Counted from the stretch's first letter, positions 1,250 through 31,744 are shown. The stretch is 64,000 nucleotides of DNA from Marsupella aquatica (GCA_973895155.1 OZ316892.1:20223869-20287868), one strand, 5' to 3'. Notes: generated from the letters alone by a model not told the origin. A program made the numbers and translations.

Positions 1250-1593
1250 TGTTAGATATTGTTCTAGTCTTGTGACTCATGAGCTAACCATAGTTAGTCT
1301 AACTCGGGTTAGGACTTAGCTAATGTTTGCGGTAGTGCTGTTGTGCATATAGCCAGGGCTGATGCCAGACCCTGGGGGAACTTAGGCTCATTGTTACGGA
1401 GCTAGTTGAGAGATAGGGAGAGCTTGTGCTGTGGAAGCTTGGTATGGCCGGTCGGCCTAGAGTGCAGTAAAGCTCTTGTGTGTTCCCGTGGACGTAGCCT
1501 CATGTGGAGGTGAACCACGTATCTCTCTGTGTCGACTATTGTGCGTTGGATGGTTCATGGGCTTGCCGTTACGAATGTCGTCTATGCTCAACA
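1250..1593 (+). repeat. 5' LTR
   Basis: TGTTAGATATT...GCTCAACA, directly repeated at 7759-8102. Confidence 0.97.
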
Positions 1594-1595
1594 AG

Positions 1596-1607
1596 TGGTA
1601 TCAGAGC
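1596..1607 (+). promoter_or_regulatory. Primer-binding site (tRNA-iMet type)
   Basis: TGGTATCAGAGC 2 nt after the 5' LTR, the canonical plant iMet PBS. Confidence 0.95.
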
Positions 1608-3276: not shown

Positions 3277-6200
3277 ATGAGTGACTCGGAGGATACTGGA
3301 AGAATTGGCGTCGGTGGAGCTTCAGGATTGCGACGCTCAGACGGTGAGTCTGAGGAGGAGCTGCTACCATTTGAGGAGGAACAAGTAACACCGGTACGAT
3401 CACCTATGCGGCGTGCAGTGGAGGAAGCTGTACTACTACCAGAGCTGTTGGTAGTTGGGAAGAAGAGGGAGATGGCTAGATTCGGAGGAGTAAAGTTTGA
3501 GGTGGAGAAGTACGATGGTCGTACTGATTACTTGTTGTGGGAGAAGCAAGTGAAGGGTGTTCTACGGGCCATGGGCTTAGCTCATCTGCTCTCTTCGCGA
3601 GAGCAGTATGATGGAGAGGAGGAGATCTCAGAGAAGCAGTGGAGACAGGAGCAGGTGATTGTTGTTAATGCAGTGATGCTTTACCTGAAGCCGCACATCA
3701 TCAAGCAGTTGGATGATTATGCGGATTGCGCATCACTGTTCAAGGCTCTTAGAGAGAAGTACTACCGGGAAGATGCGTCAGACCGGCTGTACAAGAAGTC
3801 TCTCTTGATGAGCCTCAGGCTCAAGGAAGGGAGCAAGATGCAGGATCACCTGGATAAATTTGACAGTCTAGCGGTGGATCTGTCAAACCTGGGAAAAGGA
3901 GTTGAAGATGAGGATAAGGCCTTGCTTCTGCTAAGCTCCTTACCGCCGTCATATCAGGGCTTGAAATAGGTGCTCTTGTACAGAGATCTGAAGTCCATTT
4001 CGTATAATGAGGTGGTGAGCTCTTTACTGTCTGATGATGCTCAGAAGAAGCTGGGTCAATCACAGACAGCATCTTCTTCTGGCACTGCGCTCAATGTGAA
4101 CAAGGGAAGAGCAGCGCAGCGCACAAATGGGCAGAACAGGTTTAGATCTACATCACGGGGGAGATCTAAATCCAGAGGAAAATTGCAAGAGAGGAAGCCT
4201 CTTGCATGTTGGAATTGTGGCAAGCCTGGCCACATGAAAAGGGATTGTCGAGTAAAGGTCCATACTGCATCTGCTAACGCGGGATCGAGCTCACATGAGG
4301 TAGATTTACTCGATGATGATGACATATTGTGATGTCAAGGTTATGCTCTCAACGTAGTGTCAAATCCAGGTAGTGATGACTGGATTCTAGATAGTGCATG
4401 TACTTTTCACATTTGCTCTAGGAGAGATTTTTTCAATTCTTACACGGTTTCCAACGGGTCAGTGTTGATGGGAAATGGAATCCCATGTCAAGTTGTTGGA
4501 CTTGGATCTGTAAGATTTCAGATGTTTGATGGTGCTGTGAGAACGTTGAGGAATGTAAGACATATTCCCAGCATGATGAAAAATGTCATTTCACTTGGAG
4601 TTTTAGAAGCAAATGGCCATCAGTGGAGTTTTGCTAATGGTGTCCTTCAGGTTTCAACCGGTACTAAAGTTGTATTGAAGGGAAAGAGACATTGCAATCT
4701 ATACGTTTTGGAGGGCAGTGTAGTCAGTGATGAAGCCAATGCAATCTTATCTCATGAGGAGACGGCCCAGCTGTGGCACTTCCGTTTGGGCCACATGAGT
4801 GAAAAAGGTTTGGTTATTCTTCAGAAGAAAGGATTACTTTCTAATTTACAGTCTTGTAAGTTGGAATTTTGTGAGCACTGTGTGCTAGGGAAGCAGCACA
4901 AGAAACCCTTCGGAGTTGGAACTCACACCAGCAAGGAGGTACTTGAGTATGTACATAGTGATGTGTGGGGTCCAGCCCCTACTCCCTCACATTCTGGACG
5001 GTTATACTATGTCACGTTTATAGACGATTACTCAAGATATGTGTGGATATACTTTCTACACAATAAATCTGATGTTTTTGCCACTTTTAAGGAGTGGAAA
5101 GCCCAAGTTGAAAATCAAACTGGTAATAAGGTGAGATATCTTCGATCGGATAATGACGGTGAATACAGTTCCGGTGAATTTGGAACGTATTGTAAGGAGC
5201 AGGGGATTACCCGCCATCTCACAACAAGTTATACTCCTCAGCAGAATGGTGTTTCTGAGAGACTCAACCGAACACTATTGGACCGCTCGAGGAGTATGTT
5301 GAGTCAATCATGCTTACCACATGAGTTTTGGGCTGAAGCTGTCAACACTGCAGCTTATTTGGTAAATTTTTCTCCATCCAGTTCTATTGGATTCAAGACG
5401 TCATTTGAAATGAGGTACGGGCGTCCAACAGATTACTCACATCTGAGGATTTTTGGATGTGATACTTAAGTGCTTACACCTTCCCAGCTTCGATCCAAGC
5501 TAGAGTCCAAGTTGAAGAAGTGCATTTTCCTTGGCTATCAGAAAGGTGTGAAGGGTTATAGGTTATGGGATCCAGTAACCTGTAAGCTAATTGTCAGTAG
5601 AGATGTGTCCTTTAATGAATCCAGATCATCAAAGGAGGGGGAGAGTTCTCAGGACTCCCATATTGACAAGGGGAAATCTCCCATCCCGGACCGGGTTGAG
5701 GGGGAGATTAGTCATGATGCAGTTCATGAAAGGAGAGATGGAGAAGCTCCGGGCTTGGAGCTGGTTCCTGTGATGGAACAAGAGGAGCAAATTGTTGCTG
5801 GGGTACCTCAAATTCAACCAGCAGCAGCAACAGATCAGCCTGAGTCATCTACTAGAAGAACTTCCAGTCGTTCTACTAGAGCTCCTACCAGGTATGGTCA
5901 ATGGGTAGACTCATCTAAGCTAGATGATATTGACATTGCACCTGATGAAGATGATATGGCTTTGATCTTGGAAGAAGGAGAGCCTTCTTCGTATAGTGAG
6001 GCTTGTGCTTCAGAGCAGAAGCATGAGTGGAATGCAGCAATGCAGAGGGAGTTGCAATCTTTGAGTAACAACAAGACATGGGAACTGGTGGAGCTTCCAA
6101 GAGGTCAGCAAGTGGTGGACAGCAAGTGGATTTACAAGTTGAAGGACAGTCCTTCAGAGGGTGGAGATAAGATCTACAAGGCAAGGCTTGTTGCCAAGGG

Positions 6201-7545
6201 GTTCACTCAGGAGAAAGGAGTGGATTACAATGAGGTCTTTTCACCAGTGGCTAAGTATTCCACAATTCGGATCTTGTGTCAGCTTGTTGTGTTTTTTGGT
6301 CTGGTGATGGATCAGATGGATGTTGTTACTGCTTTTCTCTATGGCAACTTGGAAGAGATGATCTTCATGAGACAGCCACTAGGCTTTATGAAGAAGGGCC
6401 AAGAGAACTTAGTTTGCAGATTGCTCAAATCCTTGTATGGATTGAAGCAGTCTCCCAGACAGTGGAACAAGCGGTTTGATGATTTCATACTTGCTCAAGG
6501 TTTTACAAGGATGGTGTATGATCCTTGTGTGTATACGAAATCAGTCAAGAATGATGTATTTGGTTTCATCATTCTGGTGATCTATGTGGATGACATGCTA
6601 ATTGTGGCTAAAGATCAATCTGAGGTTAACAGTCTCAAGGCAAAATTGAGCGTTGAATTCAGGATGAAGGATCTTGGTAAGGCCAAGAGGATCTTAGGGA
6701 TGGAGATTTTTAGGAACTCTGAGACTGGACAGTTGTGCTTGAGTCAAGGCCAGTATGCGAGGAAAGTACTTGCACGATTCAACATGGAGAACTGTAAGCA
6801 AGTGAGTATTCCTTTAGCTTCGCATTTCAAGTTATCATCGGCTTTCTCTCCTACGGATGCTGTGGAGAAAGGTCTAATGGCTAAGATTCCTTATGAGAAG
6901 GCAGTAGGCAGTCTGATGTATTTGATGACTTGTACTAGGCCTGACTTGGCCCTAGCGATGGGCAAGGTTAGCAGATTCATGTCAAATCCAGGGAAGGTAC
7001 ATTGGGAAGCTGTGAAATGGATTCTCAGGTATGTGAAGGGAACACAGGACTATGGATTACTATTTGATAACAGATCAAATAGAACGTTAGTTGACTATGT
7101 AGATTCTGACTATGGAGGCTGTCTGGATACAAGGAGATCTACAATTGGGTTCGTATACACTCTTGGAGGAGGATGTATCAGTTGGAAATCTACCTTGCAA
7201 AAGTGCATATCTCAGTCTACTACAGAAGCAGAGTATGTTGCAGTAGCAGAAGCTGCAAAGGAAGCAATTTGGTTGGATAAGTTGATCGCGAAGATGGGTT
7301 TAGAGCATGGAAAAATGACTCTAAACTGTGATAGTCAGAGTGCTCTTCACTTGGCTGCTAACCAGGTGATGGATAGCAGGGTGAAGCACATTGATATCAG
7401 GTACCATTTTATCAGGCAAGCAGTGTGTGATAAAACTTTTGAGCTAGTCAAGATTGATGGAAAGCTCAATCCCGCTGATGCCTTTACCAAAGTGATTCCT
7501 TTGGAGAGTTTCTCAAGACACCGTGCTACTTTGCAGATTTTGTAG
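3277..7545 (+). pseudogene. Copia gag-pol polyprotein in one reading frame, interrupted by three stops (3967-3969 TAG, 4330-4332 TGA, 5467-5469 TAA)
   Basis: Gag KFEVEKYDG and zinc knuckle CWNCGKPGHMKRDC; protease WILDSAC; integrase LWHFRLGH...CEHC, VHSDVWG, LRSDN.GEY, QQNGVSER; RT YKARLVAKG, MDVVTAFLYG, YVDDML; RNaseH YVDSDYGG, TEAEY, KHIDIRYHF. All four ORF pieces are in the same frame. Confidence 0.95.
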
Positions 7546-7747
7546 TTGTAGTGCAAGTAGAGTTATTTAGCAATGTGTGACTATTTGTATATGGATTACT
7601 CATTCCTGTTAGGCTACGGCTTAGTTCTAGTTAACCCTTAGTTAACCCTTGTGGTTTTTAGGGGGAGACCTGGTTTGGTGATTGTCTAGAACTTCCCGCT
7701 GAGGATTCCATATGATAGCATTTAGTTCATTCCCCAAGACAAGAGTC

Positions 7748-7756
7748 AAAGGGGAG
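7748..7756 (+). other. Polypurine tract of the copia element
   Basis: AAAGGGGAG just upstream of the 3' LTR. Confidence 0.85.
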
Positions 7757-7758
7757 TT

Positions 7759-8102
7759 TGTTAGATATTGTTCTAGTCTTGTGACTCATGAGCTAACCAT
7801 AGTTAGTCTAACTCGGGTTAGGACTTAGCTAATGTTAGCGGTAGTGCTGTTGTGCATATAGCCAGGGCTAATGCCAGACCCTGGGGGAACTTAGGCTCAT
7901 TGTTACGGAGCTAGTTGAGAGATAAGGAGAGCTTGTGCTGTGGAAGCTTGGTATGGCCGGTCGGCCTAGAGTGCAGTAAAGCTCTTGTGTGTTCCCGTGG
8001 ACGTAGCCTCATGTGGAGGTGAACCACGTATCTCTCTGTGTCGACTATTGTGCGTTGGATGGTTCATGGGCTTGCCGTTACGAATGTCGTCTATGCTCAA
8101 CA
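7759..8102 (+). repeat. 3' LTR
   Basis: Direct repeat of 1250-1593, followed by the TSD CACTT. Confidence 0.97.
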
Positions 8103-11100
8103 CACTTAGGGAGTTTTGACAGGGGTGTTTTAGATTTTACCAAAAACCTAAATGTTCAATACACTTATCCATAAAGCATATTAACCATCAATAAGTGTTC
8201 AAAACATGTGTTTTAGTTTTACAAAGCCCATAAACCCTAAACTATTTGATAAGTGCATCACATAGTGCTAACCATCTATAAGTGGATATCTGGGGATTTT
8301 CAGGGAGTGTGCAGTTACAAAAGGTTGACCCCCATATGTCCTCCATGACTATAGATATGTAGCAGAAAGGTCTCATCAAGGGGATGGGTAAACTATAGGG
8401 TTTATGCTTAGGATGTCTCAAACCTCTCTGTTTTGGCTTGATCCGGTCATGGTTGCATGCACAGGGTTTTCTGGCAGTTATGTTGCGGACTGGAAAATAC
8501 CTGGTTTGCCCCTTTTGACCTAAGTCTAAAACTCTTACTTTTGGGCCGGGAGGTATTTGTTTAATGGGACCCTAAAATGAAAAGTATTACTTGATGGGAC
8601 CCCTGATGGAGGTGTTGGGTGCGTTGATTCAAGGTTAGGTCTCTCAAGACCAATCAATGGTCTAGATCACTCAGGGGGTCCTATCCGGGCCAGTAAAACT
8701 TTTCTTTTTCCAGCCCTTCAGGCTCCCTACTACTTTGACTTGTGATGCTTTGACCACCAGAGGAGTCTTCGCTCATGACAATCACGTCTTTCACATTTTG
8801 TCCTTGCAGAAAATCATTTGACATTTTGAACATTACGAACTCAGAGTTCGTGCACAGGCCCTTTAGACACGGCAAAGCCAGTGATACAGGGCTCTGTCCT
8901 TCATCGCATAATTGGTAGATGAAGTCTCGCTGGTCTCGACTGTTGACACCAACAAAGCGTTTAGCGACTACTGGTGATGGAACGGTATTTCTTTAAATGC
9001 AAACCCAGCCCTCGTTTCTGTCATAAGCCGTTTATGCCAGCCTTTAGACGTACATGTCAGGTGCCAATGTGTTCCCACATGTTGCACGTCTAAAGGCTGG
9101 CATAATATTAAGAAAGCAAACGGCTAAGCTTGCACATTAATTAATCCTGTCCCTTCCATATATTGCCCCACAGGAGGTGGGTTTCTGCAGTATATCATAG
9201 TGTACGTGATGACAGAAGTTCATCGCAGCTGGGCACCAACATTATTGTCTGCAATTCTAGGAGTGCCGTGCAGCGCAGTAACCGCGTGAGTTGTTGTGGA
9301 CACGTTGGTCAACAACTTCACTTGGAAGATCATCTCTTGCGGATGATACCTCGGTGATAGATTGGGAACTACTAGAAATCTGCTTCCACAAGCAATCCAC
9401 TTCGCTTGAGTGTACAAGAAAGGGATGGCAAGAGTAAACCATACGGTACTTCTAGCCGATTATCTGAGGTAGTGGACGCCACTGGATAGTCCTGCGCTCC
9501 ATTTGCCGGGTGCCGAGGACACTATGCGATCAACCTGCCGAATACTAAGTACGTCTTGATCGCGGCTCTACAACGTTTAACACTCTACTAACGGTGCCAA
9601 CTGAAGGCAGAAAGTTTAAGCGCGGGGAGGGGGCCGTCAACAACGATTCTGTACCTGTAGCTTTGCCGGATGGCGATATGCTAAGCTGTCACCAAGACTA
9701 TTGAAGAACTACGCTGGAGAACAATCCTTGGAGAGGACATGTACACTGCAGACTCCCCGGACCAATTCTCTGACCTTACTTTGCAGATTGAATGCATATG
9801 ACGGCAGTGTATACGACGCTCAAGGATGCTTAAGGAAGAGGATTTCTGGGCTGGCCCAATGGAGTGGGCAGTGTCTCAATAACAGCAGTCTGGTTCCGGT
9901 CGGGAGCTACACATACGTGCCTGCAGCTGCAGTAGTCCCACGAGGTATACCACATTATACCCTGCCATGCCATTCCCCGCCCCGTCCTCGTGTGCGTTGT
10001 TTTCCTGTACTAGTATAGGTGAAGCATACATTGAGAGAAACTCACTTAAAGAGAACCATCCATTGTCAGTCCGATACAATGGGCGGCCGGATGCATTGTC
10101 TTCTGCTATGAGGCAGTTGGCCACTGACGACCTAGATTGATTGATTTCTCGTTCACTTTCTCGTTCACTTGCTTTGAGGGGTGGGTCGGACTGGAAATCG
10201 GCGTGTTGATCGATCGGCCATCATTTGGACCTTCTGGGCAGGCATGCACTCTTCGCTCTTGTTTTCGTTGGGGTTCCGTGGACTTCAATATCTTTTCCAT
10301 CGGTTATTTCAGTATTTCTAAATTAGCCATACTAAGTACGTCTTGATCGCGGCTGAAATTTCTGTGTGGTGGGCATATGGGCTCAGTTCACCCTTGGCCT
10401 TGTCCTAAAGTTTTCGTCTATCGTAGATCTGCTATTAATTACTTTGACTAGCTACTGCCATCCAAGTCTGTTGTTCAGTTTCACAACACTAATGGCTATG
10501 ATCTAAGCGAGCTTTGTCAACACGGTCGTACTAAATATATACTCAGGTCTTGATATAGTTACCGAAAGCTTGTACTGTAATTTCTGGGTTGTTGGACATT
10601 CGTGATCGATTCATTGGGGCCAAAATGCTAGTTGCGGGCCCTGTCTCAATTATGTTTCTGGTTGTGTCTAATAGGTCCATCATCTTTCCAATTCACACTT
10701 GGATGTCCTCTGAGTCTACCCGCTAGGGGGTAAAGAGGCGTTAACCCTGATCTCCTGGACAAGGCTCCTTCGATACCATCATCAGTGTGCACACTTACCC
10801 CAGATGTGTGAAACCATCCACTCATCAACAGGTAAGCTAAAAGTCATGATTGCTCCACAATCATATTCTGTCAGGTTGGAAAAGTACTGTGTGGTGGAAC
10901 CAATTTTGGACTAAAACTCAATAACTGTAGATCATCTTAGTTATAGTTATTGGTCTTGGTGGTATCCTCTAGCTAGTAACATGCACTGTGTCATATATGG
11001 GTTTGGAGAGACCGTCACAGGTTCAACGCTAGTATTTGGTTTCCGTTGTCAGTAACTTGCATTATTTTATTGTATTTTGTAGTAAGATTGAAACTACAGT

Positions 11101-12108
11101 CAATAGGTGAACAGTCAGATTCCTCTATTGCTTTGGATTCTTAGTTTACCATAAGCAGCTGGTTTACCTGAAAGCAACTCGGTTAACGAAGGCTGAGGGT
11201 GACAGTCATTGTGAGCTTTACAGGCAATTATCAGTAAGATATATCGTCTTAGGATACATCGAAATTACTTAGTTCTGGTCAATTGGCATGCTGAAGATAG
11301 CTCGGTTGCTCAAAAGTTATTCTTAATTATCTCAGGAAAGTTCTATACTATGATGGAGCGAGCTCAGGAGAGATGTTCCCATATATGGTACAAGCTAGTG
11401 AAGAACTTTCTAGTATGAGCTATCAATGGGGAATTTTGGTCTTCAGACAGAGGTACTGGCCACAATGTGGTACTTCAATCTAAAGGTAGCTAAAAGCCTT
11501 ACGTATTTGAGCAAGTCTTCAATGCATGCTTGATGAGTTTCTTCTCGGCCCCATTCTTTCGTTTGTTTGTTGACTTCTTCCATGTCTGCTACGTACATTA
11601 CAGTAGCCAGTCCGCCCCGTCTGATACTGTTGTTACTGTTGTTTATGCAAAAATATGGTGGAGAAAGAGAGTACATGAGATTTGCGAGCAACTGTACAAA
11701 ACTCAGTCGCTGTCAGAATCTATATTGGATAAGTTTGTGTACCGTGGTTAGATCAACGCACAGTCATGAGGTGCTGAAGATATTGAAAATCATTTTTACA
11801 CTCTTCAACTCGATGTGAGGTAGAGAGAAGTGCAATACGTTGATGTTTACTCGATGGTCCTTGGCCTACAGGATTGCAAGGTGTGAAATCTCACAGCACG
11901 AGTGGGTCGACGGGGTACAACTTTCGTCTATCAAGGTATATTGCCATTTCTGAACACCAGCTATCAGATCAGGTTTCTGTGCCTAAACATCTGAGATTGT
12001 CTTCAAAGGGTTACTCTGGACGAGTCCAGTTACCTTTCTCAAGTGTAGACTCTAAATGTCAAAGGTTCACCTCATCAAATTTCATTGCATATCTTATCAT
12101 ACAGAATC

Positions 12109-15100
12109 ATGGCAGCTTTGGTAGTGGCCACCGAGGTTGTGGCGTTGGTGGGCGGGATCGTCGACCTCTGCAAAAGAATCTCCGACATTGCGTCCAATTT
12201 AGAGACTCTCGGAGGGACCTCGGCCAATCTTTCGACTGACATTGAAACCCTTCACTCAAGAATCCAGGATGTTCAGGAGCAACTTAGCATTCGTGGGGAA
12301 CGTGTGAATGGCAACGTGGTGAAGAAGTTGGAGACTGCGAACTCCACACTGTTGAAAGCAGAGTCGGACATACAAGATCTGAAGACAAGATTTGAAAGCA
12401 ATAAGTGTTGTTTCCTACGATGGTGGCTGTCTGTCAAATTATGTATGAATTCATTCTCAGCTAAACTTGATGAACGAATTCGATCTGTGGACAAGGCCTT
12501 CGACGATGTCATCAAAATCATGAAGGACGAGATAGAACTAAAAACTCTTGTGCAACAGGATGCCGACCTTCGACCTACCCCAACAAAAATGTCCCCCATT
12601 GATGACCTTTATGTTCCTATTGTGGAGGTACAGAATGCTGTCATCGCAGCAATTGAAAAATTGGATGGCCCTCCCTTAGTATTGTTGCATGGTGGCGTCG
12701 GCAAAGGGAAATCTACTTTAGCAAGATATGTGCATAAGTTTTATGAAAACAGAACAGAAGCGTTTCAGTATGTGCTCCTAGTCAACTGTGCAGGCAGCTC
12801 CAAATTTGATCCTTCGAACAAGCAGTATGAAATCTTGAGGAGACTTTCTCCCGCTAGCTTAACCATTAATCCAGGGAGAGAACACAATGACTTTAATATT
12901 AGGATTGCACAATCCCTCCATGAATTTTTCTTGAGTGGCAGCAAGATGTTAATCATTTTAGACGATGTCTCAGACCGTCTGTTTATCGCTGAGATGTTGA
13001 AGGCTTCTCAATGTCGTACAAACGTGAAGTACTTTGTTACTTCCCAAAATCCCGATTTGTGTAACAGCTGTAGGAAGTATTCTTTCCCTATTCCCATGAG
13101 CGATCCCAATGATCATGAGGCGAAGACGATTCTTGCAACCCTTGTTGGACTGAAGGACAACTTAATTCCGGAAAAGTTACAGGTCCGTTTCCGAAATTCA
13201 CTTTCAGACCTTTTGTTTGTTTGTTCCTTATCATGTTCAAAGTTTACGTTGGACTGTAAAATTCAAAACAATGCTCTATTTCAATGTTGTGTAGCATTGA
13301 ATTATTTAATAAGTATATGTTAAAGCTTCGTTACCAAGATTGGTTTTCCATGGTTTAATAACTATTACGGCAATATTTTGTTTGACATGCAGAGATTTGC
13401 AGATCAGATGATAAAGGCTACAGGTGGAAACCCATTAGCTCTCTCCTGTTTGGCGAGTAATTTTGCTAATAACCAAGACAAAACAAATGTGCGCGCATGG
13501 AATGAAGCCTACGGAGCACTGTGTCACATACTTGGCGAGTCAGAGAATATGACGGTCCTCTGGGGCACTTCTGATGATACTCCCCCCAGAAGTCTTTGGG
13601 CTGCCATGCAAGTTTGTATTAATTGTTTGCAGAGCCAGGATGCCAAAGATATATTGTTCTTGATGTACGCCTGCGAAGGAGAATCAGTCCCAGAGGAGGT
13701 GTTGAGAATTCTGCATGCTACAGCAAAAACTTCGGGTGGCATGTTTTCCACGTCAATTGCAGAATTATGGTCCAGGGAACTCTTGAAAGCTAGTACTAAT
13801 ACCATAGCACAAAAGCTGTTTTTTGAAAGTAAGGACCAAATAAAGTCCAAGTCATGTTCCATGTTGACGACACTGAAGCTCTACATTGACCAGCATATGG
13901 CTAGTGACCAGGAAATGCGGACTCTTTTCAGTGTTTTCAGAGGGGAAGGTGAAACTAAAGCGGATTCTAGCATCAACCATGAACGGGGCTCTGAAGTAGA
14001 ACCAATGGACAACAGGCAGACCAAAGTGGCAATCGCTCTGTGTGCATTGTACTTCGATCGAGATCATACTGATAAAAATGTAAAAGAGGCTGCAACTTGG
14101 GCTTGCGAAAAATCGCGTATGAACGACTGGAATGCTACCATCAAAGACAGGAGACGAAAGGCCATTGAGCCCCTAATCTGGTTGCTGGACCAGACAGAAA
14201 TAGACGACCCTACATGGAGAGAATCACATATCCACTGTCTGAGACAGGTACCTCCGGCAGCCCTTAAGGTTTTTGATTTATCCTCCACTTTCGATAGATT
14301 CATTTGTGCATGTTATTAACTTACCGTGTTGAACCAATGTTTCCACTGTCTAGGACTTACCTCCTGTAACGTTTGAGAAACAGTATCTTATGTATTTTTA
14401 TATGTTGCGTCATGGTGATCATATTTTCGTGTCAGCCATCCCATATCTATAAACCACAATATTGTTTTTAAGAAGTCAGAACAACAGCATGCATTTGTCT
14501 CCTGAACACTTCACGTGCATGCTGAGCTATGTTTCTGGGTTTACTGCAAGAAACAAAAACAAAAGTTAGAAATAGAAATATGCAGTGAATTTGTACTTGG
14601 GAGAAATCTTGCGGAAATCTTGCTGTGCATTACAGTTTGCCTTATTTTGAAACGAGAGGAATTTGTATCCCCGAGATTCCAGCCCGATGGATTCTCCTTC
14701 CCGAAGTAACTTGTATGACTCTTTTTAGTTTCTTTCATGATTACAGGTATTTCTAAGGTACATCTGTTTCAACGAGCTTGATGTCAGCAACATCTGTATC
14801 CTGTTGAAGTTGACGAGTTGTCCATCAGCCCAGTTGGCAATGCTCGTTGCTCTTGCCGACATTCTTGAAATCGAAGAAATACCTTTGCTGAAAAGTGATC
14901 GTGTGACTTTTGTGCAAGAACTGGTGCACATTTTGAAATCCAATGCAGATTTCAACCGAAGTATTCAGGGCGCCGCCTGGAAAGCACTAGAAAAACTTTC
15001 CTGGAAAGCTAGTAAGGAAAGGGAGTCGGATTCTATCGTACGCAGCACACCAGATCTTTTGCCCACATTGGAACGCACTCTCCGAGATTCAGATACCCGT

Positions 15101-16234
15101 GCAACAGTTGCTGCCTCGATTTTGTGGAGTCTATCATATGACGGAGATGAATCAATATCCCTCTATATTCTCACTGGAGATGGCGCCGGATTGCTCGATA
15201 GCCTGGTCAAATCTCTCTCCAAGGACGGGAACCCTAAAGTACAGGTACATGCAGCATGGGCTTTAAATAATCTAGCATGGGGACAGGACACGATCAAACT
15301 CAGAATTTTAGGTGAACATGGGGCACTGGAGGGCCTCGTGGGGGCTCTGTCCAAGATTCAGAATCCCAAATTGCAAGAAGCAGCAGCATGCGCATTGTGG
15401 GGTCTAGCTACAGGAGGGGAGTCCATCAAACTCCAAATTGCGGGTGCAGATGGGACACTTGCAGGCCTGGTCAAGTCTCTCTCGGAGGACGAGAACCCTG
15501 AACTACAGGGAAATACAGCTTTTGCTTTAAGCAATCTAGCATATGGACTGCAGCCAATGAAGACCAGAATTTTGGATGAAGCTGGGGCGCTCGAGGGCCT
15601 CGTGGGGGCCTTGTCAAAGGACCGGAATCCCAAATTGCAAAAGAATGCAGCAGGGGCTTTAGCTAATCTATCCATGGGAGGGGACTCAATGAATCTCAAG
15701 CTCAGAATTTTGGATGAAGCTGGGGCGCTCGAGGGCCTTGTGGGCGCCTTGTCAAAGGACAGGAATCCCACATTGCAAAAGAATGCAGCAGGGGCTTTAG
15801 CTAATCTATCCATGGGAGGGGACTCGACGAATCTCAAGCTCAGAATTTTGGATGAAGCTGGGGCGCTTGAGGGCCTCGTGGGGGCGTTGTCAAAGGACCG
15901 GAATCCCAAATTGCAAAAGAATGCAGCAAGGGCTTTATCTAATCTAGCCATGGGAGGGGACTCAACGAATATCACAATTGTGAAGAAGGAAGGGGCACTT
16001 GCAGGCCTGCTGAGGGCGTACTCGAAAGGCAATAATATGCTTTTGCAGAAGCACGTTGCAGCCGCGTTAGTCAAATTGGCGTCTACACAAGACCCATCAA
16101 TCAAGATCAAAGCGAGGTCCGAGGAGGGCTGGTTGGCTGCTCTGACCAAATCTGCAGCCGAGGGTGACACTGAGTTTCGAAAGGAAGCACAACGGGCATT
16201 GGAGAATCTTGAGGTCGGTAAGCCTTGGGGCTAG
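12109..16234 (+). CDS. NLR-like STAND protein: N-terminal four-helix/CC(RPW8/HeLo-like) domain, NB-ARC-like NTPase, Armadillo repeats; about 1138 aa; exons 12109-13182, 13393-14247, 14747-16234
   Basis: Both introns are GT-AG and phase 0, and the exons splice in frame. P-loop GGVGKGKSTLA, Walker B LIILDDV, RNBS-B-like YFVTSQN, GLPL-like GGNPLAL. The C-terminus has 44-46-aa ARM repeats (GALEGLVGALS...NPKLQ..AA.AL.NL). The N-terminal domain assignment is by resemblance only. Confidence 0.88.
15170..15975 (+). repeat. Coding ARM-repeat array of copy 1 (six high-identity units; three near-identical 138-bp units start at 15566, 15704 and 15842)
   Basis: AGAATTTTGGATGAAGCTGGGGCGC recurs at exactly 138-bp spacing; the preceding units are 132 bp. 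Confidence 0.93.
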
Positions 16235-18150
16235 AAATGGCTCGAGAGGTTCCTCTTAAGACTGGGCTCGTGAAGACCACCCAGAGCAAACTAAGGTATT
16301 CAGCGATTCATGTGGCATATTTTAGTTTCTCACAAGCGTGGAATTTCTCAGTTGGGAAGGACTGGTCCAAGGTTCAACTCCTATGCCCAGATCATACGAA
16401 GGACAATTGTTTATTATATCAGAGTACCCCAAGGCTTGAATAGCCATATCTGGGCTTACAGCTCACTTGAATGTCTGAATCAAAAACTTCTCCCTTGTAC
16501 GTATTCACGTTAATCTCCCAAGCTTGGGAACGCCAAGACTGATTGAAGCATCTGCTAGCAAGTAGGTAAATTCTCTTTGAACAAGGTTCAGACAGGCAAT
16601 GTTGGAGCTCCGGGGTGTCTAGGCAATTGGTCCTGTCTACGGATCCTGTGGCCCCAGACTTGATGGTTACATCACAATCATCAGATTCAGATTACTCCAC
16701 GGTAGTTCGACACCTTTGTAAGCCATGCCCAGTGATCGAACAGCACTCGCTCAGCTACCTGTTTGTGTGAAGAAGTTCTCTGCTAAGTTCGTTGGACAAT
16801 CACCAAGTTAGAGATAAGAAATCTTGTAACTGGTTGCTTAAATGTTCTGCGCTAGTCCTCCTTGTATTTCCGCAAGACGATTGTTTTTCTCTTTTGTCTG
16901 GCAAGCTCACTTTCCTGCTTGTCCTGTTTGTCCTGTTTGTCATTTCCCCCGTTTGGAATTCCGTAGACTTGAAAATTCATTCACTCTCTCGGTTGCGATC
17001 TCAGAAGTTTGAAAGGACACTTGAAAGTAATTTTCCAAGTACTAACAGAAAATGTTCTTAAATTTCAGGATAATTTGAAAGACGTGGAAGAGTAGAACGC
17101 CTCTTTGTTAGCTCTTGGAGTCTTGTCTGCTAGAAAATTGTGGAAATACCCGACGGATTCAAAATGGACCCTGACCCACCCTGTCGCCCGAGGGTCCGCA
17201 CCTCCACAGACGCAAGACGTGCGGATTCGCTGCGCTCTCTGGAATTCTGGTGAGTCCATTGATTCTCATTATTTTCGAGTTCACGGTTTTACTATCGTCA
17301 AAGTTAACGAAGAGCATTTGGAATTTTAGAAAAGCGCACACTCCGCAGTTGCGGATTTGCTTGAAAATAAATGTGCAAAAGCTTATTTCACTCCTTGGAC
17401 GAGATTTGTAGAAGCGTAACTTGAAGTTGCTGGTCCCTTTCTACGAGGATCCTTCACTCGTCCTTAATGACGTGCAAGGAGGTTAGACCTTACCCTCACC
17501 GGCAAGTCGTGGTTTTGATAAGTTGCTTCAGGTGAAGAATTATCTGTACGTGGTTTAGCTGATTGTTCTGATTCGCTTGGGTCTTGACTAATGAAAAGCA
17601 TTCAGCCGAATATCCGTTTGCTTCCAGGTCGGTGATGGTGAGCGTTTTGGAAATTGAGGTATTTCCCCCAATCCATATGAGACCCTGCTTTTCTAGGCAT
17701 GTAGTCAGTTCCCTTCCCATTTTTGCAGTCACGATTTCGACGTCTCTGAAGTTGATGCTCTGCTATTCTCGTTTCACTGTACACGGCAGACACAGTTACA
17801 ACGCAGGCGGCTCAGGTGATGCAGATACGCAAACCCTCTGAAATATTCTAACCTCATTCTTCTTTGTGAGCAGGGTTTAATTGAGGTTGCCCTGGAAGAC
17901 CTTGCTTGCAGTTGATTGTTTCACAAAGTACGAATTGGACGCCAGTAGTAAAGTAAGGACCCGAACTCCTAAATCTGATTCATACAAGTTTCAGTAAGCC
18001 TCACGAGTCTCACTGTCCAGCCAACCAGAGTGTAAATCATTTTGCCTCCAGGAAATCTACTCTCCTTGGACCTGGAAAATGGACAGTGCACAGTAGGTGA
18101 TTGTTTTAGATTTATCTAGGTGATCTGCTCAATTTACACTGTACTGAACT

Positions 18151-19594
18151 GAAATGGCAATGGTGGCAAGCAAGAAAATGGAGGACGAGAAGAAGGCTTG
18201 TCTGGGCTGCGTAATCTAATTTTCTCTGCTGTGAAGCACTTCTCTGAGGAGTTTTCACGAGAGTTGAGGAATGAGACCGGTTTTGACAACGAAGTTGCTC
18301 TACTCCGTTTGGGAGCAGAGTATTACGCTCTGCGAGAGAAACTTGGAGGCGGACTGATTGCGGCACAAGATGAGGTGCAAAGCAAGGTGAATGTAGTGAG
18401 GGAGCGAGGCACAGGTGCTGTGAACAACGTTCGGCACAGATTCTGGCCTCAGTTTGTTATTTGGAACCGGATAGAACTCTGGCAGGTCCGTTCTCATCAA
18501 TCTTTACTTAGTTGTATGTTCTTATTCGTGGAAATGAAATGAATATAGAGTTGAATAAAGTCTGGATTTTCAAACCTGTGAAGTTCCTCTGGCTCTGCCT
18601 CCCGTCATCTAACTTTGCCACCTTTACAGGCCAAGAAAAGGATATTAGCGTTCCTGGAGTTGCACGCATTACTACCTGGCAGGAGCGCCTTGCAGAGTGG
18701 AATAGAGTTTTTTAGAGGGAGACGTTAAAAGAAACCTTGGGCGCAGCATCAAGCCAATGTGAGGTTGATGTCGATTGGCCAAAACTTGTAGCACAGATTG
18801 AGAATGCCAAGCAGGAGAAGAAGAGGCTCCGAAGGCATAGAGAGCATTCTGGTTTGCAAGGGAGTGGTGGAAACATCGGCCAAATTGCCCTACACTTACA
18901 TTCTGGCCAAAGTTCTGAATCATGAGGTACGTACATGGGAATGTCTTTCTTGACTTCATCCTGGTAAAGTGTTGATATTTAGCCATGTGCTTGAATTAGT
19001 CTCTCCTGTTGAATTTAACTCAGGTAAATCACTGCCTCAAAGATGCTCGCTCAGGTGGCGAATTAAATTAAATATCTCCGATGGTTCCCCCTCACATAAC
19101 TGCAGTGGATGGAGATCAATCGATGTACCGTTGAGACTGGGATTTCCTTGTTGTTTTATCTAGGTGAGGGCAGCTGTATATACTGAAGACATATATGACG
19201 AAGCTTTGTGTGACAATGAAGGAGGGTTTCCCTACTGATTATGTTGTGAGTAGTACTATGCCACCTTAGGTTTACGGTTATGTAGGCGATGTCCCATTGG
19301 CTGATGCTCTGTATGCCCTGATTATTTACTCTCACTACTTGCACTAGTAGATTCTTCCACAAGTTTGAATCTCAATGACTCCCAATTTGAGGATTCCTTA
19401 TCAAGTTTGAGCCAGAATGGGAGGAATTGTTTTATGACAGGTAATTTCATGCACTCTTCTACAGCTTGATATTCCAGTGGATCCAACTACATATACAATG
19501 CTGGAAACGTCTGGAGTTGAAATTGATGGTCTACACTTAAGTGGTTTGTACTACTATGGATCTTACTTGTACTATTACCAAGTGTGTTGGTCAT
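18151..19594 (+). pseudogene. Truncated, internally deleted duplicate of the 5' part of FtsH12
   Basis: 18151-18544 matches 36125-36518 and 18545-19594 matches 37937-38959. It lacks the start codon and exons 2-3, and has an in-frame TAG near 18713 plus indels. Confidence 0.93.
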
Positions 19595-20997
19595 CTTACT
19601 ATAAAAGCACGAGTGAAGCCTGAAGCCTCTAGACCGCAACTTCTAATACAAACAAAACTGATAATGAGGCTCAATAAGGTCAAACTTTTAAATAGGATAA
19701 CAAAAATGACATCAACTCTAAATAAAGACAAAACTGAAATGAGGATGGACAAAAAAACAGGGATGGGACAAAGACTAACCAATCTGAGTCCAAAGGGGTG
19801 TAAGATGACAAAGTTATGACCACAAAACCACAAGAAGTTGCTGGAGTCTCTCTCTAAGTGCACACTCTAGGAACTAGCATCCAGTGTGAACTTACCTTTG
19901 GTCTGCACTACGTGATAAGTGCAAAAACATGGAACTTCCCTAAACTCTAAACACAAAACTATGCATTTCTTCATAAGAGCTACATTGCCTCCATGTAGAA
20001 TGGGCACCTTTGGCAGTGACTTGTGACTCCTAGCCTAAATTGTACATCCCTGCCATAAGGGTTTCTACTACCCAACATGATCCCTTACCCCATCAGTGCA
20101 ATTGTTATGCTCCATATAAACCCTTTACCCAACATGATCCCTGACCCCGTAAGCGCAGATGTTATGCTCGGTATAATTGCAATGCACTTATCAATAAGTG
20201 TATGTCAATGGAATTGTGCACCTACCAATTAGTTTCAATATACACTAATAGAGGATTTTCACTTATATTGTTGTTGTTTAGTGAAAGTTTTCTGGCCTCT
20301 TTGAACTGACAAAGATTGCAAAATCCACCAAAAAGGGAAGAACAATACAATGTACAGTTGTCCAGGGTTTTCACTTATGGAGTGTGCACTTAAAGAGAGA
20401 CCACTCTACCTGGAATCTGAAATTAAAAACACTCCATATTTAACTTGCACTTTTGACACACTTTCTAGAGTTCATGTGTCCCAACAGACAGACATGGCAC
20501 TAAGAGAACTCGAGCAGAACACCTTACCAACTTAAATTAGCAGTTGCTTAAAGAGCCCACCGTGGCTGTTAAGTTTCAGGCCCAATCATCCATGTCTGTG
20601 GATCTAGAATTAAGATCTGATGGCTTATGCTGAGCCTTGTGACCATTCCCCACTATCGTCCTCTATACTAGCTGGCACAAGATCACATTCTATGATATTC
20701 TGAATCCAACTGGGAACAGTTTTCCCTTGAATTTTCACCGGTACAAAGGTCTTGGTGTACAAGGGCCCCCTTTAAAGCCATCCAACCCACATCTAATGGC
20801 CAAGAACAATGGTGATTGCATTTTCATCCTGGAACAAACTTGAGAATTTTTTTCCTGTACGTATTTTAGTCTATCTTAAACACTATTAGTAGAATTTTTA
20901 TTCCTACATGAAGGGGTCTGGGTTGCCAGTTTGGGGTAGAACAAAAACATCGGGAATAAAAAAAAGAGTTTAGCGGGTTAAGGGGCAATGAAAGAAT

Positions 20998-21040
20998 GAG
21001 CTTTTGCTTTGCTTGGTAATGTACTTGTCTAATGTACCAA
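20998..21040 (-). pseudogene. Inverted continuation of the FtsH12 pseudo-exon (WYIRQVHYQAKQK)
   Basis: The reverse complement TTGGTACATTAGACAAGTACATTACCAAGCAAAGCAAAAG matches 38960-39000 and resumes exactly where the plus-strand match stops at 19594. Confidence 0.85.
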
Positions 21041-21532
21041 ACTAGCCCCATGACCTGTTCCTTGAACTAAATATATATAAAGAAAAATCTTGCGCAATAA
21101 AATTCCTATGTTATTTTGTCTCCTCCATATCCATGCAAATTCCACTTGAAATTCCCACCACTAGGTAATTCCTACCTGACACTCAATCATGCCTTCTCTT
21201 TTGACTCTCCTCCTCCATGCAACTCATGATTTGTCTTTCAATTGTCTTTTACTAATGTAATCTTTCACTTTGACCACTTACATTCTGAAATATTTATACT
21301 TCCTCTTCAACAACATTTTGCAATGCATGGGCGTAGTCGGTGCTTTCTTGCATGCCTCTTTGTACAGTGCATGAGGTTCTAAGAAGTGTTTGTTTTGTTT
21401 AGAGTTGTCCCTTGCTAAGTGCATTTTTTAGGGAAATATCAATAAATGGATGAAACCATTCAAATTGTTGTTGGATGAGCATTCAGACCATATGGAGTGA
21501 ACAGATACAGGGGGAAATCTTTGCTCAATGAA

Positions 21533-26932: not shown

Positions 26933-29900
26933 ATGGCAGCTTTAGTAGTGGCCACCGAGGTTGTGGCGTTGGTGGGCGGGATCGTCGACCTATGCCAAAA
27001 AATCTCCGACATTGCGTCCACTTTAGAGACTCTCGGAGGGACCTCGGCCAATCTTCCGTCGGGCATTAAAACCCTTCGCTCAAGAATCCAGGATGTTCAG
27101 CAGCAACTCAGCATTCGTGGGGAACGTGTGAATGGCAACGTGGTGGAGAAGTTGGAGACTGCGAACTCCACACTGTTGAAAGCAGAGTCGGACATACAAG
27201 ATCTGAAGAAAAGATTTGAAAGCAATAAGTGTTGTTTCCTACGATGGTGGCTGTCTGTCAAATTATGTATGAATTCATTCTCAGCTAAACTTGATGAACG
27301 AATTCGATCTGTGGACAAGGCCTTCGATGATGTCATCAAAATCATGAAGGACGAGATAGAACTAAAAACTCTTGTGCAACAGGATGCCGACCTTCGACCT
27401 ACCCCAACAAAAATATCCCCCATTGATGACCTTTATGTTCCTATTGTGGAGGTACAGAATGCTGTCATCGCAGCAATTGAAAAATTGGATGGCTCTCCCT
27501 TAGTATTGTTGCATGGTGGCGTCGGCAAAGGGAAATCTACTTTAGCAAGTATGTGCATAAGTTTTATGAAAACAGAAAAGATGCGTTTCAATATGTGCTC
27601 CTAGTCAACTGTGCAGGCAGCTCCAAATTTGATCCTTCGAACAAGCAGCATGAAATCTTGAGGAGACTTTCTCCCGCTAGCTTAACCACTAATCCAGGGA
27701 GAGAACACAATGACTTTAATATTAGGATTGCACAATCCCTCCATGAATTTTTCTTGAGTGGCAGCAAGATGTTAATCATTCTAGACGATGTCTCAGACAG
27801 TCTGTTTATCGATGAGATGTTGAAAGCTTCTCAATGTCGTACAAACGTGAAGTACTTTGTTACTTCCCAAAATCCCAATTTGTGTAACAGCTGTAGGAAG
27901 TATTGTTTCCCTATTCCCATGAGCGATCCCAACGATCATGAGGCGAAGACGATTCTTGCGACCCTTGTTGGACTGAAGGACAACTTAATTCCGGAAAAGT
28001 TACAGGTCCGTTTCCGAAATTCACTTTCAGACCTTTTGTTTGTTTGTTCCTTATCATGTTCAAAGTTTACGTTGGACTGTAGACTCCAAAACAGTGCTCT
28101 ATTTCAATTTTATTGAATAATGTAATAAGTATATGTTAAAGCTTCTTTACCAAGATTGGTTTTCCATGGTTTAGTAACTAGTACGGCAATATTTTGTTTG
28201 GCATGCAGGGATTTGCAGTTCAGATGATAGAGGCTACAGGTGGAAACCCATTAGCTCTCTCCTGTTTGGCGAGTAATTTTGCTAATAACCAAGACAAAAC
28301 AAATGTGCGTGCATGGAATGAAGCCTACAGAGCACTGTGTCACATACTTGGCGATTCAAAGAATATGACGGTCCTCTGGGGCACTTCTGATGATACTCCC
28401 CCCAGAAGTCTTTGGGCTGCCATGCAAGTTTGTATTAATTGTTTGCAGAGCCAGGATGCCAAAGATATTTTGTTCTTGATGTACGCCTGTGAAGGAGAAT
28501 CAGTCCCAGAGGAGGTGTTGAGAATTCTGCATGCTACAGCAAAAACTTCGGGTGGCATGTTTTCCACCAAGTCATGGTCCATGTTGACGACACTGAAGCT
28601 TTACATTGACCAGCATATGGCTAGTGACCAGGAAATGCGGACTCTTTTCAGTGTTTTCAGAGGGGAAGGTGAAACTAAAGCGGATTCTAGCATCAACCAT
28701 GAACGGGGCTCTGAAGTAGAACCAATGGAGAACAGGCAGACCAAAGTGGCAATCGCTCTGTGTGCATTGTACTTCGATCGAGATCATACTGATAAAAATG
28801 TAAAAGAGGCTGCAACTTGGGCTTGCGAAAAATCGCGTATGAACGACTGGAATGCTACCATCAAAGACAGGAGACGAAAGGCCATTGAGCCCCTAATCTG
28901 GTTGCTGGACCAGACAGAAATAGACGACCCTACATGGAGAGAATCACATATCCACTGTCTGAGACAGGTACCTCCGGCTGCCCTTAAGGGTTTTGATTTA
29001 TCCTCCACTTTCGATAGATTCATTTGTGCATGTTATTAACTTACCGTGTTGAACCAACGTTTCCACTGTCTAGGACTTACCTCCTGTAACGTTTGAGAAA
29101 CAGTATCTTATGTATTTTTATATGTTGCGTCATGGTGATCATATTTTCGTGTCAGCCATCCCATATCTATAAACCACAATATTGTTTTTAAGAAGTCGGA
29201 ACAACAGCATGCATTTGTCTCCTGAACACTTCACTTGCATGCTGAGCTATGTTTCTGGGTTTACTGCAAGAAAGAAAAACAAAAGTTAGAAATAGAAATA
29301 TGCAGTGAATTTGTACTTGGGAGAAATCTTGCGGAAATCTTGCTGTGCATTACAGTTTGCCTTATTTTGAAACGAGAGGAATTTGTATCCCCGAGATTCC
29401 AGCCCGATGGATTCTCCTTCCCGAAGTAACTTGTATGACTCTTTTTAGTTTCTTTCATGATTACAGGTATTTCTGAGGTACATCTGTTTCAACGAGCTCG
29501 ATGACAGCAACATCTGTATCCTGTTGAAGTTGACGAGTTGTCCATCAGCCCAGTTGGCAATGCTCGTTGCTCTTGCCGAAATTCTTGACATCGAAGAAAT
29601 ACCTTTGCTAAAACCTGATCGTGTGACTTTTGTGCAACAACTGGTGCACATTTTGAAATCCTATCCAGAATTCAACCCAAACATTCATGACGCTGCCTGG
29701 AAAGCACTTGATAAAGTTGCCTGGAAATCTGGTCAGGAAAGGGAGTCAGATTCTATCGTACGCAGCACACCAGATCTTTTGCCCACATTGCAACGCTCTC
29801 TCCAAGATTCAGATACACGTGCAAAAGATGCTGCCTCGATTTTGTGGTCGCTGTGTTATGACGGAGATGAATCAATATCCCTCTATATTCTCACTGGAGA

Positions 29901-31744
29901 TGGCGCCGGGTTACTCAATAGCCTCCTCAAGTCTCTCTTCCAGAATGAGAACCCTGAACTACAGGAAAATGCAGCATGGGCTTTACGCAATCTAGCATCT
30001 GAACAGGACACAATTCAGCTTCGAATTTTGGGTGAATATTGGGCGCTGGAGGGCCTCGTGGTTGCTCTCTCCAACGTTCGGAATCCCAAATTGCAAGAAG
30101 CCGCAGCGGCGGTGTTGCAGGGTCTAGCTACAGGAGAGGAGTCCATCAAACTCCAAGTTTCGGGTGTACATGGGGCACTTGCAGGCCTGGTCAAGTCTCT
30201 CTCCGAGAATGAGAACCCTGAACTACAGGAAAATGCAGCATGGGCTTTAAGCAATCTAGCAATGGGCCCGGACACAATCAAGCTACGAATTTTGGGTGAA
30301 GATGGGACGCTGGAGGGCCTCGTGGGGGCTCTGTCCAACGTTCGGAATCCCAAATTGCAAGAAGCGGCAGCGGCGACGTTGCACAATCTAACTTTAGTAG
30401 GGGAGTCCATCGAACTCCAAATTTTGGGAGTAGATGGGGCACTTGCAGGCCTGGTCAAGTCTCTCTCTCAGGACAAGAACCCTGAACTACAGGAACATGC
30501 AGCATGGGCTTTAAGCAATCTAGCAAACGGCCCGGACACAATCAAGCTACGAATTTTGGGTGAAGATGGGACGCTGGAGGGCCTCGTGGGGGCTCTGTCT
30601 AACGTTCGGAATCCCAAATTGCAAGAAGCGGCAGCGGTGACGTTGCACGATCTAACTTCAGGAAAAGAATCCATCGAACTCCAAATTTTGGGCGTAGATG
30701 GGGCACTTGCAGGCCTGGTCAAGTCTCTCTCTCAGGACAAGAACCCTGAACTACAGGAACATGCAGCATGGGCTTTAAGCAATCTAGCAAACGGCACGGA
30801 CACAATCAAGCTACGAATTTTGGGTGAAGATGGGACGCTGGAGGGCCTCGTGGGGGCTCTGTCCAACGTTCGGAATCCCAAATTGCAAGAAGCGGCAGCA
30901 TCCATTGCTGAGTCTAGCTACAGGAGGGGAGTCCATCAAAATCCAAATTGCGGGTGCAGATGGGGCACTTGCAGGCCTGGTCAAGTGTCTCTCCGAGGAC
31001 GAGAACCCTGAACTACAGGGAAATACAGCTTTTGCTTTAAGCAATCTAGCATATGGACTCCAGCCGATGAAGACCAAAATTTTGAATGAAGCTGGGGCGC
31101 TTGGGGGCCTCGTGGGGGCCTTGTCAAAGGACCGGAATCCCAAATTGCAAAAGAACGCAGCAGGGGCTTTAGCTAATCTATCCATGGGAGGGGACTCAAC
31201 GAATCTCAAGCTCAGAATTTTGGATGAAGCTGGGGCGCTCGAGGGCCTCGTGGGTGCCTTGTCAAAGGACAGGAATCCCACATTGCAAAAGAATGCAGCA
31301 GGGGCTTTAGCTAATCTAGCCATGGGAGGGGACTCAACGAATCTCAAGCTCAGAATTTTGGATGAAGCTGGGGCGCTTGAGGGCCTCGTGGGGGCCTTGT
31401 CAAAGGACCGGAATCCCAAATTGCAGAAGAATGCAGCAAGGGCTTTAGCTAATCTAGCCATGGGAGGGGACTCAACGAATATCACAATTGTGAAGAAGGA
31501 AGGGGCACTTGCAGGCCTGCTGAGGGCGCACTCGAAAGGCAACAATCGGCTTTTGCAGAAGCACGTTGCAGCCGCGTTAGTCAATTTGGCGTCTACACAA
31601 GACCCATCAATCAAGATCAAAGCGAGGTCCGAGGAGGGCTGGTTGGCTGCTCTGACCAAATCTGCAGCCGAGGGTGACACTGAGTTTCGAAAGGAAGCAC
31701 AACGTGCATTGGAAAATCTTGAGGTCGGGAAGCCTTGGGGCTAG
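26933..31744 (+). pseudogene. Second CC-NB-ARC-ARM paralog, frameshifted; exons 26933-28005, 28209-28967, 29467-31744
   Basis: Same exon structure as copy 1. 1-bp deletion at 27549/27550 just after the P-loop, in-frame 96-bp deletion near 28568, 2-bp deletion near 30902, and 792 bp of extra ARM repeats. Confidence 0.88.
29890..31485 (+). repeat. Expanded ARM-repeat array of copy 2 (twelve high-identity units; a 264-bp AB dimer present four times)
   Basis: NPELQE(N/H)AAWAL and NVRNPKLQEAAA units alternate four times, then one EDENPELQGNTAF unit and three KDRNP(K/T)LQKNAA units. Confidence 0.93.

What the first reader, a model, noticed from the sequence alone, without database searches (positions are those of the whole stretch)
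12109..16234. Intact NLR-like receptor with Armadillo repeats in place of LRRs (CC/4HB-NB-ARC-ARM)
Seen: three exons splice in frame into about 1138 aa with an amphipathic helical N-terminus (MAALVVATEVVALVGGIVDLCKRISDIA...), NB-ARC-type motifs in the right order (GGVGKGKST, LIILDDV, VTSQN, GGNPLAL) and about ten ARM repeats. Known: plant NLRs use LRR sensors (TNP proteins use TPRs), whereas fungal and bacterial STAND receptors use WD40, TPR or ankyrin solenoids; RPW8, HeLo and MLKL four-helix bundles execute cell death. Inference: this is a tripartite executioner-switch-sensor immune or non-self receptor with an ARM sensor. I do not recall this architecture being characterised in plants. Tandem duplication and decay of the paralog fit NLR birth-and-death evolution.
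Basis: partly seen in the sequence, partly recalled or inferred. Interest (0 to 1): 0.92.

Follow-up and report, generated by a model that had tools for sequence, protein, structure and literature searches.

The report
Liverwort RLS1-related armadillo-repeat immune receptor
This is an intact gene, likely from a liverwort, for a probable immune receptor that has armadillo repeats where most plant receptors have leucine-rich repeats; that layout is already known from rice RLS1 and catalogued in Marchantia, but here the repeats are near-identical and differ in number between two neighbouring copies, which may be a fast way to change what is recognised.

Summary
Three GT-AG, phase-0 exons join into 1138 aa without a stop: a predicted four-helix CC-type N-terminus, an NB-ARC switch and an ARM array. 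A frameshifted tandem paralog lies 15 kb downstream. The novelty claim fails. CC-NB-ARM is a described plant class: rice RLS1 is functionally characterised, and a published NB-ARC phylogeny table puts Marchantia NB-ARC-ARM(-TPR) genes in the RLS1 cluster. My tree places the gene in a liverwort clade (100/97) on the same side of a 99/97 branch as RLS1-type proteins. One RLS1-type ORF implies the same intron position. An AU test did not reject the alternative grouping (p 0.17). What remains of interest: the ARM units are homogenised (85/100 identity, against at most 22 in RLS1-type proteins) and number 8 against 14 in the paralog. Replacements cluster on the predicted groove helix, as in fungal NLR repeats with high internal conservation. 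Positive selection was not shown (pN/pS 1.12, p 0.40). Expression and function are untested.

The parts
12109..13182 (+). Exon 1 (aa 1-358): CC-type four-helix N-terminus plus NB domain
12112..12567 (+). Predicted four-helix bundle, aa 2-153 (H2-33, 41-62, 68-97, 102-153), hydrophobic then amphipathic first helix
   Evidence: mean pLDDT 68; Rx-CC Z 11.3, rmsd 2.1, 106 aligned; hydrophobic moment
12691..12717 (+). P-loop GGVGKGKST (aa 195-203), intact
12949..12969 (+). Walker B LIILDDV (aa 281-287), intact
13039..13047 (+). RNBS-B/sensor-1 TSQ instead of TT/SR; TSQ is common in the liverwort clade
   Evidence: meaning of TTE/Q from PMC9104254 passage
13183..13392 (+). Intron 1, phase 0, 13 codons before the GLPL proline; position shared across the liverwort clade and inferred in one RLS1-type ORF
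13393..14247 (+). Exon 2 (aa 359-643): GNPLAL motif, HD1/winged-helix region and helical bridge
13855..13875 (+). MHD-equivalent CSMLTTL: His absent as in the closest homolog; W513C departs from a Trp kept in 14 of 15 relatives and in the paralog
14248..14746 (+). Intron 2, phase 0, 499 bp
14747..16234 (+). Exon 3 (aa 644-1138): less regular helical repeats, then ARM array, stop
15188..16231 (+). Eight regular ARM units; units 4-6 are 90-95 of 99 nt identical over the compared cores
26933..31744 (+). Tandem paralog, pseudogene: two frameshifts, one 96-bp deletion, 14 ARM units, 5' units more diverged than the rest of the gene
8717..19594 (+). Segmental duplication unit (matches 23490-38959 with gaps), including a 5' fragment of the downstream FtsH-like gene

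Best explanation
This is an intact CC-NB-ARC-ARM gene of an expanded liverwort clade related to rice RLS1, and it likely works as an intracellular immune receptor whose armadillo array is predicted to bind a trigger and whose four-helix N-terminus would signal cell death. Shown: gene structure, domains, motifs, clade placement, repeat homogenisation and a copy-number difference between paralogs. Inferred step 1: at rest the ARM solenoid and winged helix hold the NB-ARC closed. Inferred step 2: an extended peptide of a microbial or modified host protein binds the H3 groove, where the Asn of the WxxxN-like position is kept (14 of 17 units) and neighbouring positions vary. Inferred step 3: the NB-ARC opens and oligomerises, perhaps still ADP-bound given TSQ. 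Inferred step 4: the CC helices cluster at a membrane and trigger HR-like death, possibly with a partner as RLS1 needs RMC. Unequal crossing-over among near-identical units likely renews specificity.
For: NB-ARC and Arm above Pfam cut-offs. Nearest solved structures by sequence and fold are CC-NLR resistosome proteins NRC2/3/4 and ZAR1. N-terminal model matches Rx-CC at Z 11.3, rmsd 2.1. Tree of 68 NB-ARC rows: liverwort clade 100/97, RLS1-type 100/100, both plus one green-algal row split from canonical NLRs at 99/97. Shared intron position inferred from P0103, while 6 of 6 canonical fragments read through. RLS1 gain-of-function gives HR-like death and resistance (PMC10030324 sections 7 and 14). 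Birth-and-death pattern and 8 vs 14 units. Groove positions carry more replacements than random sets of positions (p 0.005 over all 33 positions). 3' ARM block is under purifying selection between the copies (pN 0.020, pS 0.076).
Against: No expression or functional data. Groove pN/pS is 1.12 in 8 independent pairs (p 0.40 against neutrality) and not significantly above other exposed positions (p 0.12). AU test on 28 rows did not reject liverwort + canonical NLRs as one clade (p 0.17). Domain-by-domain profiles give weak liverwort-RLS1 similarity outside NB-ARC (N-terminus P 15%, post-WHD P 3%), and the N-terminus and NB score higher against canonical CC-NLRs. The N-terminal fold match is within the range of generic helical bundles (Z under 13; Foldseek E 0.14). 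W513C and six other departures at 57 conserved columns. Two CC-like domains of other Marchantia NLRs failed to give HR (PMC12512272 passage).
Confidence: 0.6

Rival explanations
1. The protein is a regulator or helper like RLS1, acting with a fixed host partner in redox-linked cell death or senescence, and the ARM array is a scaffold whose repeat variation is neutral slippage.
For: RLS1-D needs RMC and suppresses APX1; no pathogen ligand is described in the sections read. Groove pN/pS is not above 1. Only 4 of 30 liverwort-clade proteins have homogenised tails.
Against: RLS1-type tails show no internal homogenisation (0 of 6, at most 22/100), while the liverwort clade is expanded, with tandem copies, N-terminal swaps to alpha/beta-hydrolase and variable repeat number.
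Confidence: 0.2
2. Liverwort NB-ARC-ARM proteins gained their ARM array independently of RLS1, so the shared architecture is convergent.
For: AU p 0.17 for the alternative grouping; post-WHD profiles barely align (P 3%); RLS1-type proteins keep TTR and HDM/HGM where the liverwort clade mostly has TSQ and a degenerate MHD.
Against: 99/97 and 97/95 branches in two trees; same intron position in one RLS1-type ORF; full-length profiles align collinearly over 841 columns; HD1/WHD closer to RLS1-type (P 78%) than to canonical (P 32%); published clustering agrees.
Confidence: 0.2
3. The intact-looking copy is itself a young non-functional duplicate that has not yet gained a stop.
For: W513C at a Trp kept in 14 of 15 relatives; this copy sits in a unit with a truncated FtsH-like fragment and about 4 kb from a Copia element; pN/pS against the paralog is 0.5-0.7 in exons 1-2.
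Against: 3417-nt open frame, canonical splice sites, intact P-loop and Walker B; all three coding indels lie in the other copy; 3' block pN/pS about 0.26.
Confidence: 0.12

Closest known systems
Rice RLS1/NOE2 (LOC_Os02g10900), CC-NB-ARM (PMC10030324)
   Same: CC, NB-ARC, ARM order; similar length (1040 vs 1138 aa); neighbouring clade in the NB-ARC tree; probable shared intron before GLPL (tested with RLS1-type proteins of Paulownia, Selaginella and Ceratopteris, not the rice protein itself).
   Different: RLS1 has three recognisable, diverged ARM motifs and RLS1-type proteins keep TTR and HDM; this gene has eight regular units, TSQ, no MHD His and a tandem paralog with a different unit number.
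CC-NB-ARM cluster of PMC12512272 Table S3 (ferns, lycophytes, angiosperms, 11 M. paleacea and 5 M. polymorpha rows)
   Same: Same architecture and clade; Ceratopteris 13G054700 is both in that table and in my tree (P0089); Marchantia homologs of the window gene carry the same Pfam patterns.
   Different: The passages and rows read give a cluster label and domain lists only, with no analysis of repeat homogenisation and no function; I saw no leafy-liverwort row among places 1-90 of 96.
Fungal NLRs with high-internal-conservation WD/TPR/ANK repeats (PMC4986451)
   Same: Repeats at 85% identity or more over 100 aa, repeat-number variation, variable residues on the predicted concave binding face.
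   Different: ARM instead of WD/TPR/ANK; plant NB-ARC; positive selection and allelic length polymorphism shown there, not here.
Canonical CC-NLRs (ZAR1, NRC2/3/4, Rx)
   Same: NB-ARC fold and CC-type four-helix N-terminus.
   Different: No LRR; separate NB-ARC clade; intron inside NB-ARC; TSQ rather than TT/SR.

Membership tests
STAND NB-ARC ATPase | NB-ARC profile match with P-loop, Walker B, RNBS-B, GLPL in order | tested here: met
   Pfam PF00931 46.3 bits vs cut-off 23.5; motifs; fold matches NRC, ZAR1, Apaf-1
CC-NB-ARM (RLS1-like, broad) | N-terminal CC/four-helix domain | tested here: met
   four helices, pLDDT 68; Rx-CC Z 11.3 rmsd 2.1 over 106, tied with generic bundles
CC-NB-ARM (RLS1-like, broad) | C-terminal ARM repeats and no LRR | tested here: met
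   Pfam Arm 121 bits, no LRR family reported; PDB hits are ARM proteins
CC-NB-ARM (RLS1-like, broad) | NB-ARC groups with RLS1-type proteins apart from canonical NLRs | tested here: met
   99/97 and 97/95; the alternative was not rejected by AU (p 0.17), so met with a reservation
RLS1 orthologue group (narrow) | Falls inside the RLS1-type clade | tested here: not met
   RLS1-type rows form their own 100/100 clade; the window gene lies in the liverwort clade
CC-NB-ARM (RLS1-like, broad) | Triggers HR-like cell death when activated | not testable with these tools
   needs expression assays
RPW8 / HeLo / MLKL executioner domain | Profile or distinct structural match | tested here: inconclusive
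   no RPW8, HeLo or Rx_N Pfam hit at E<=1; MLKL Z 8.4, CBL 8.7, AtMLKL3 7.8, all below Rx-CC and in the generic range
High-internal-conservation repeat NLR (fungal definition) | At least 85% identity over 100 aa between repeats | tested here: met
   85/100 in this copy (at the threshold), 94/100 in the paralog, 91/100 in P0001, by my own ungapped measure; definition
High-internal-conservation repeat NLR (fungal definition) | Positive selection at binding-face codons | tested here: inconclusive
   7 groove positions pN/pS 1.12, p 0.40; positions 33/36/40, chosen after seeing the data, 1.74, p 0.07
High-internal-conservation repeat NLR (fungal definition) | Repeat-length polymorphism among alleles | not testable with these tools
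   only two paralogs (8 vs 14 units) are available; no population data

The most novel reading that the evidence does not exclude
Leafy liverworts have turned the old CC-NB-ARM scaffold into a recombination-diversified receptor family: homogenised ARM units are shuffled and copied like fungal HET-E-type repeats, each unit reading part of an extended peptide through variable groove residues. That would be a natural modular peptide-recognition code on a plant NLR.
Probability: 0.3. Interest if true: 0.75.

Novelty: new member of a known kind. Interest (0 to 1): 0.38.

Why it matters
The architecture is not new, so the gene alone matters modestly. It does show that a class usually treated as a conserved oddity (RLS1) has a fast-evolving liverwort branch with tandem birth and death, N-terminal domain swaps and near-identical ARM units. 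If those units encode recognition specificity, they give a testable plant parallel to fungal repeat-shuffling NLRs and a natural template for repeat-programmable receptors, since designed ARM proteins bind peptides at one dipeptide per repeat (PMC6838082, abstract start).

Tried and rejected
First junction coordinates were wrong and were corrected. No whole genome is held, so family size in this species is unknown. No expression or read evidence could be obtained, and the ESM Atlas did not complete. Word-index homolog searches missed the RLS1-type proteins; the full profile search found them. The AU test on 68 rows did not finish and was run on 28 rows. Branch-wise selection counts were not available, so only pairwise counts were used; the all-pairs p-values are pseudo-replicated and disregarded. 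Rejected: RPW8/HeLo/MLKL identity; NACHT class (19.6 bits vs cut-off 26.7); ARM exon as a separate gene (continuous homologs); a claim of positive selection. Foldseek on the N-terminal model gave no hit at E<=0.001. No complex prediction was run. Three look-ups of earlier scan findings returned nothing. A 2018 paper on R-gene origins that I recalled was not held and is not used.

Full report
Observation. The exons 12109-13182, 13393-14247 and 14747-16234 are separated by GT..AG phase-0 introns of 210 and 499 bp and give 1138 aa with only the terminal stop. Exon 1 hits Pfam NB-ARC (E 4e-12, above cut-off) and exon 3 hits Arm (E 8e-36). The P-loop, Walker B, RNBS-B and GLPL motifs lie at aa 195, 281, 307 and 370. 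Single homologous proteins run across both junctions, which supports the splicing without cDNA. There are eight regular ARM units from aa 791.

Origin and context. The closest homolog is from Calypogeia fissa (50% over exon 1; 63% over the NB-ARC columns). All 22 clade members for which I obtained a name are from Calypogeia, Marchantia or Riccia; the others were unnamed or not looked up. A leafy-liverwort origin is inferred. The gene lies in a segmental duplication, 8717-19594 against 23490-38959. The second copy has a 1-bp deletion just after the P-loop, a 96-bp deletion and a 2-bp deletion in the ARM array, and has 14 units against 8. Its 5' ARM units are more diverged (pS 0.19-0.42) than exons 1-2 (0.03-0.045) or the introns (1-5%), which suggests a mosaic made by recombination (inference).

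Domains. The exon-1 profile and model match CC-NLRs best (NRC2a E 5e-12; NRC2, NRC4, ZAR1 by Foldseek). The first 160 aa model as four helices (mean pLDDT 68). The best NLR-related match is Rx-CC (Z 11.3, rmsd 2.1, 106 aligned), tied with unrelated bundles; MLKL and CBL score 8.4 and 8.7. Pfam gives no RPW8 or HeLo hit. RNBS-B is TSQ; a review passage links TTE/Q to ADP-bound RPP1 resistosomes (PMC9104254), so the same here is an inference. The MHD position lacks His, as in the closest homolog, and this copy alone has Cys for a Trp kept in 14 of 15 relatives; it departs at 7 of 57 conserved columns.

What is known. Rice RLS1 is a 1040-aa CC, NB-ARC, three-ARM protein whose V366A form causes HR-like death with the partner RMC (PMC10030324: passages and sections 7 and 14). 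RefPlantNLR notes the rice NB-ARC-ARM protein and ARM-type repeats in Selaginella (PMC8559963, passages). A review lists ARM among non-flowering-plant NLR sensors (PMC10586772, passages). A fern study names CC-NB-ARMs as conserved, and its Table S3 cluster holds LOC_Os02g10900, ferns, lycophytes, 11 Marchantia paleacea rows (6 annotated with ARM) and 5 M. polymorpha rows, several with ARM plus TPR (PMC12512272: passages and places 1-90 of 96 in the supplement).

Membership. A profile search of 1.84 billion representatives (150 hits listed of 2529) retrieved RLS1-type proteins of Paulownia, Selaginella and Ceratopteris; one (13G054700) is a row of that published cluster. The rice protein itself was not in hand. 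I built a tree from 68 NB-ARC segments chosen from my holdings (36 liverwort-type, 5 RLS1-type, 24 canonical, 3 non-land-plant-type; short fragments and redundant canonical hits left out). It gave a liverwort clade at 100/97, an RLS1-type clade at 100/100, and a 99/97 branch separating these two plus a green-algal row from canonical NLRs. A 28-row tree repeated this at 97/95, but the AU test did not reject liverwort plus canonical as one clade (p 0.17). Full-length profiles align over 841 columns (P 99.85%), but split by domain the signal outside NB-ARC is weak (N-terminus P 15%, post-WHD P 3%; HD1/WHD 78% vs 32% for canonical). Independent support: intron 1 lies 13 codons before the GLPL proline; by eye at least 28 of 32 liverwort-type short ORFs break off there with Val (a GT donor read through), and so does the one RLS1-type short ORF, while 6 of 6 canonical fragments read through. 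So it is a member of CC-NB-ARM in the broad sense and not an RLS1 orthologue.

The remaining distinctive feature. By an ungapped self-comparison the ARM tail reaches 85/100 identity (paralog 94, Calypogeia homolog 91), the threshold used for fungal NLR repeats with high internal conservation, which is rare in plant ANK/TPR/WD repeats (0.4%) (PMC4986451, passages). This holds for 4 of 30 liverwort-clade proteins with long tails (10 of 40 dropped as too short; the four include this gene, and one may not be an ARM repeat) and 0 of 6 RLS1-type proteins. Across 17 units of the two copies the core is invariant or nearly so, the Asn of the WxxxN-like position is kept in 14, and the most variable positions are 33, 40, 36 and 42 of helix 3 and its end (numbering and groove assignment recalled from designed ARM proteins, the asparagine ladder seen in a passage of PMC6838082). 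In 8 independent pairs the seven groove positions have pN 0.137 against 0.053 elsewhere (permutation p 0.005 over all positions, 0.12 against non-core positions); pN/pS is 1.12 (p 0.40). Variation is thus concentrated but not shown to be adaptive. Searches with ARM, NB-ARC, Marchantia/liverwort and high-internal-conservation terms listed no paper on homogenised ARM arrays in plant NLRs. I judged this from listings, the library lacks most subscription papers, and bioRxiv supplements are closed.

Mechanism. Most likely (0.6) it is an autoinhibited receptor in which a ligand on the ARM groove opens the NB-ARC, drives oligomerisation and lets the CC helices trigger defence-linked death, with repeat recombination renewing specificity. 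All four mechanistic steps are inferred. Rivals are an RLS1-like regulator with a fixed partner, convergent ARM gain, and an inactive young duplicate.

Verdict. Real, intact gene; new member of a known kind; interest 0.38. The most novel reading not excluded, a shuffled ARM recognition code in liverwort NLRs, has probability 0.3 and interest 0.75 if true.

Noticed in passing
window 1250-8102: Copia-type LTR retrotransposon with 346-bp LTRs 99.1% identical; gag-pol frame interrupted by three in-frame stops (3967, 4330, 5467) despite the young LTRs.
   Followed up: partly
window 18151-19594: Truncated duplicate of the 5' part of the FtsH-like gene that starts near 35700 (AAA and peptidase M41 exons at 39501 and 40948).
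   Followed up: partly
window 47234-48572 (+) and 53337-55701 (-): Ferroportin (FPN1) exons and an acyl-ACP desaturase (FA_desaturase_2) gene; ordinary neighbours.
   Followed up: no
protein P0002 and relatives (e.g. P0066): Liverwort-clade members with an alpha/beta-hydrolase N-terminus in place of CC; P0002 is hydrolase-NB-ARC-ARM-TPR and is close to the window gene in the tree, implying N-terminal domain swapping.
   Followed up: partly
proteins P0005, P0016, P0040: Clade members with other C-termini: a hydrophobic non-repeat tail (P0005), an ACT-like repeat hit (P0016), and a 91-aa highly conserved repeat with PUL/Cys-knot hits (P0040).
   Followed up: no
window 312-1168 vs 20598-21436 and 22911-23001: Inverted dispersed repeats at 75-81% identity, probably old transposon fragments.
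   Followed up: no
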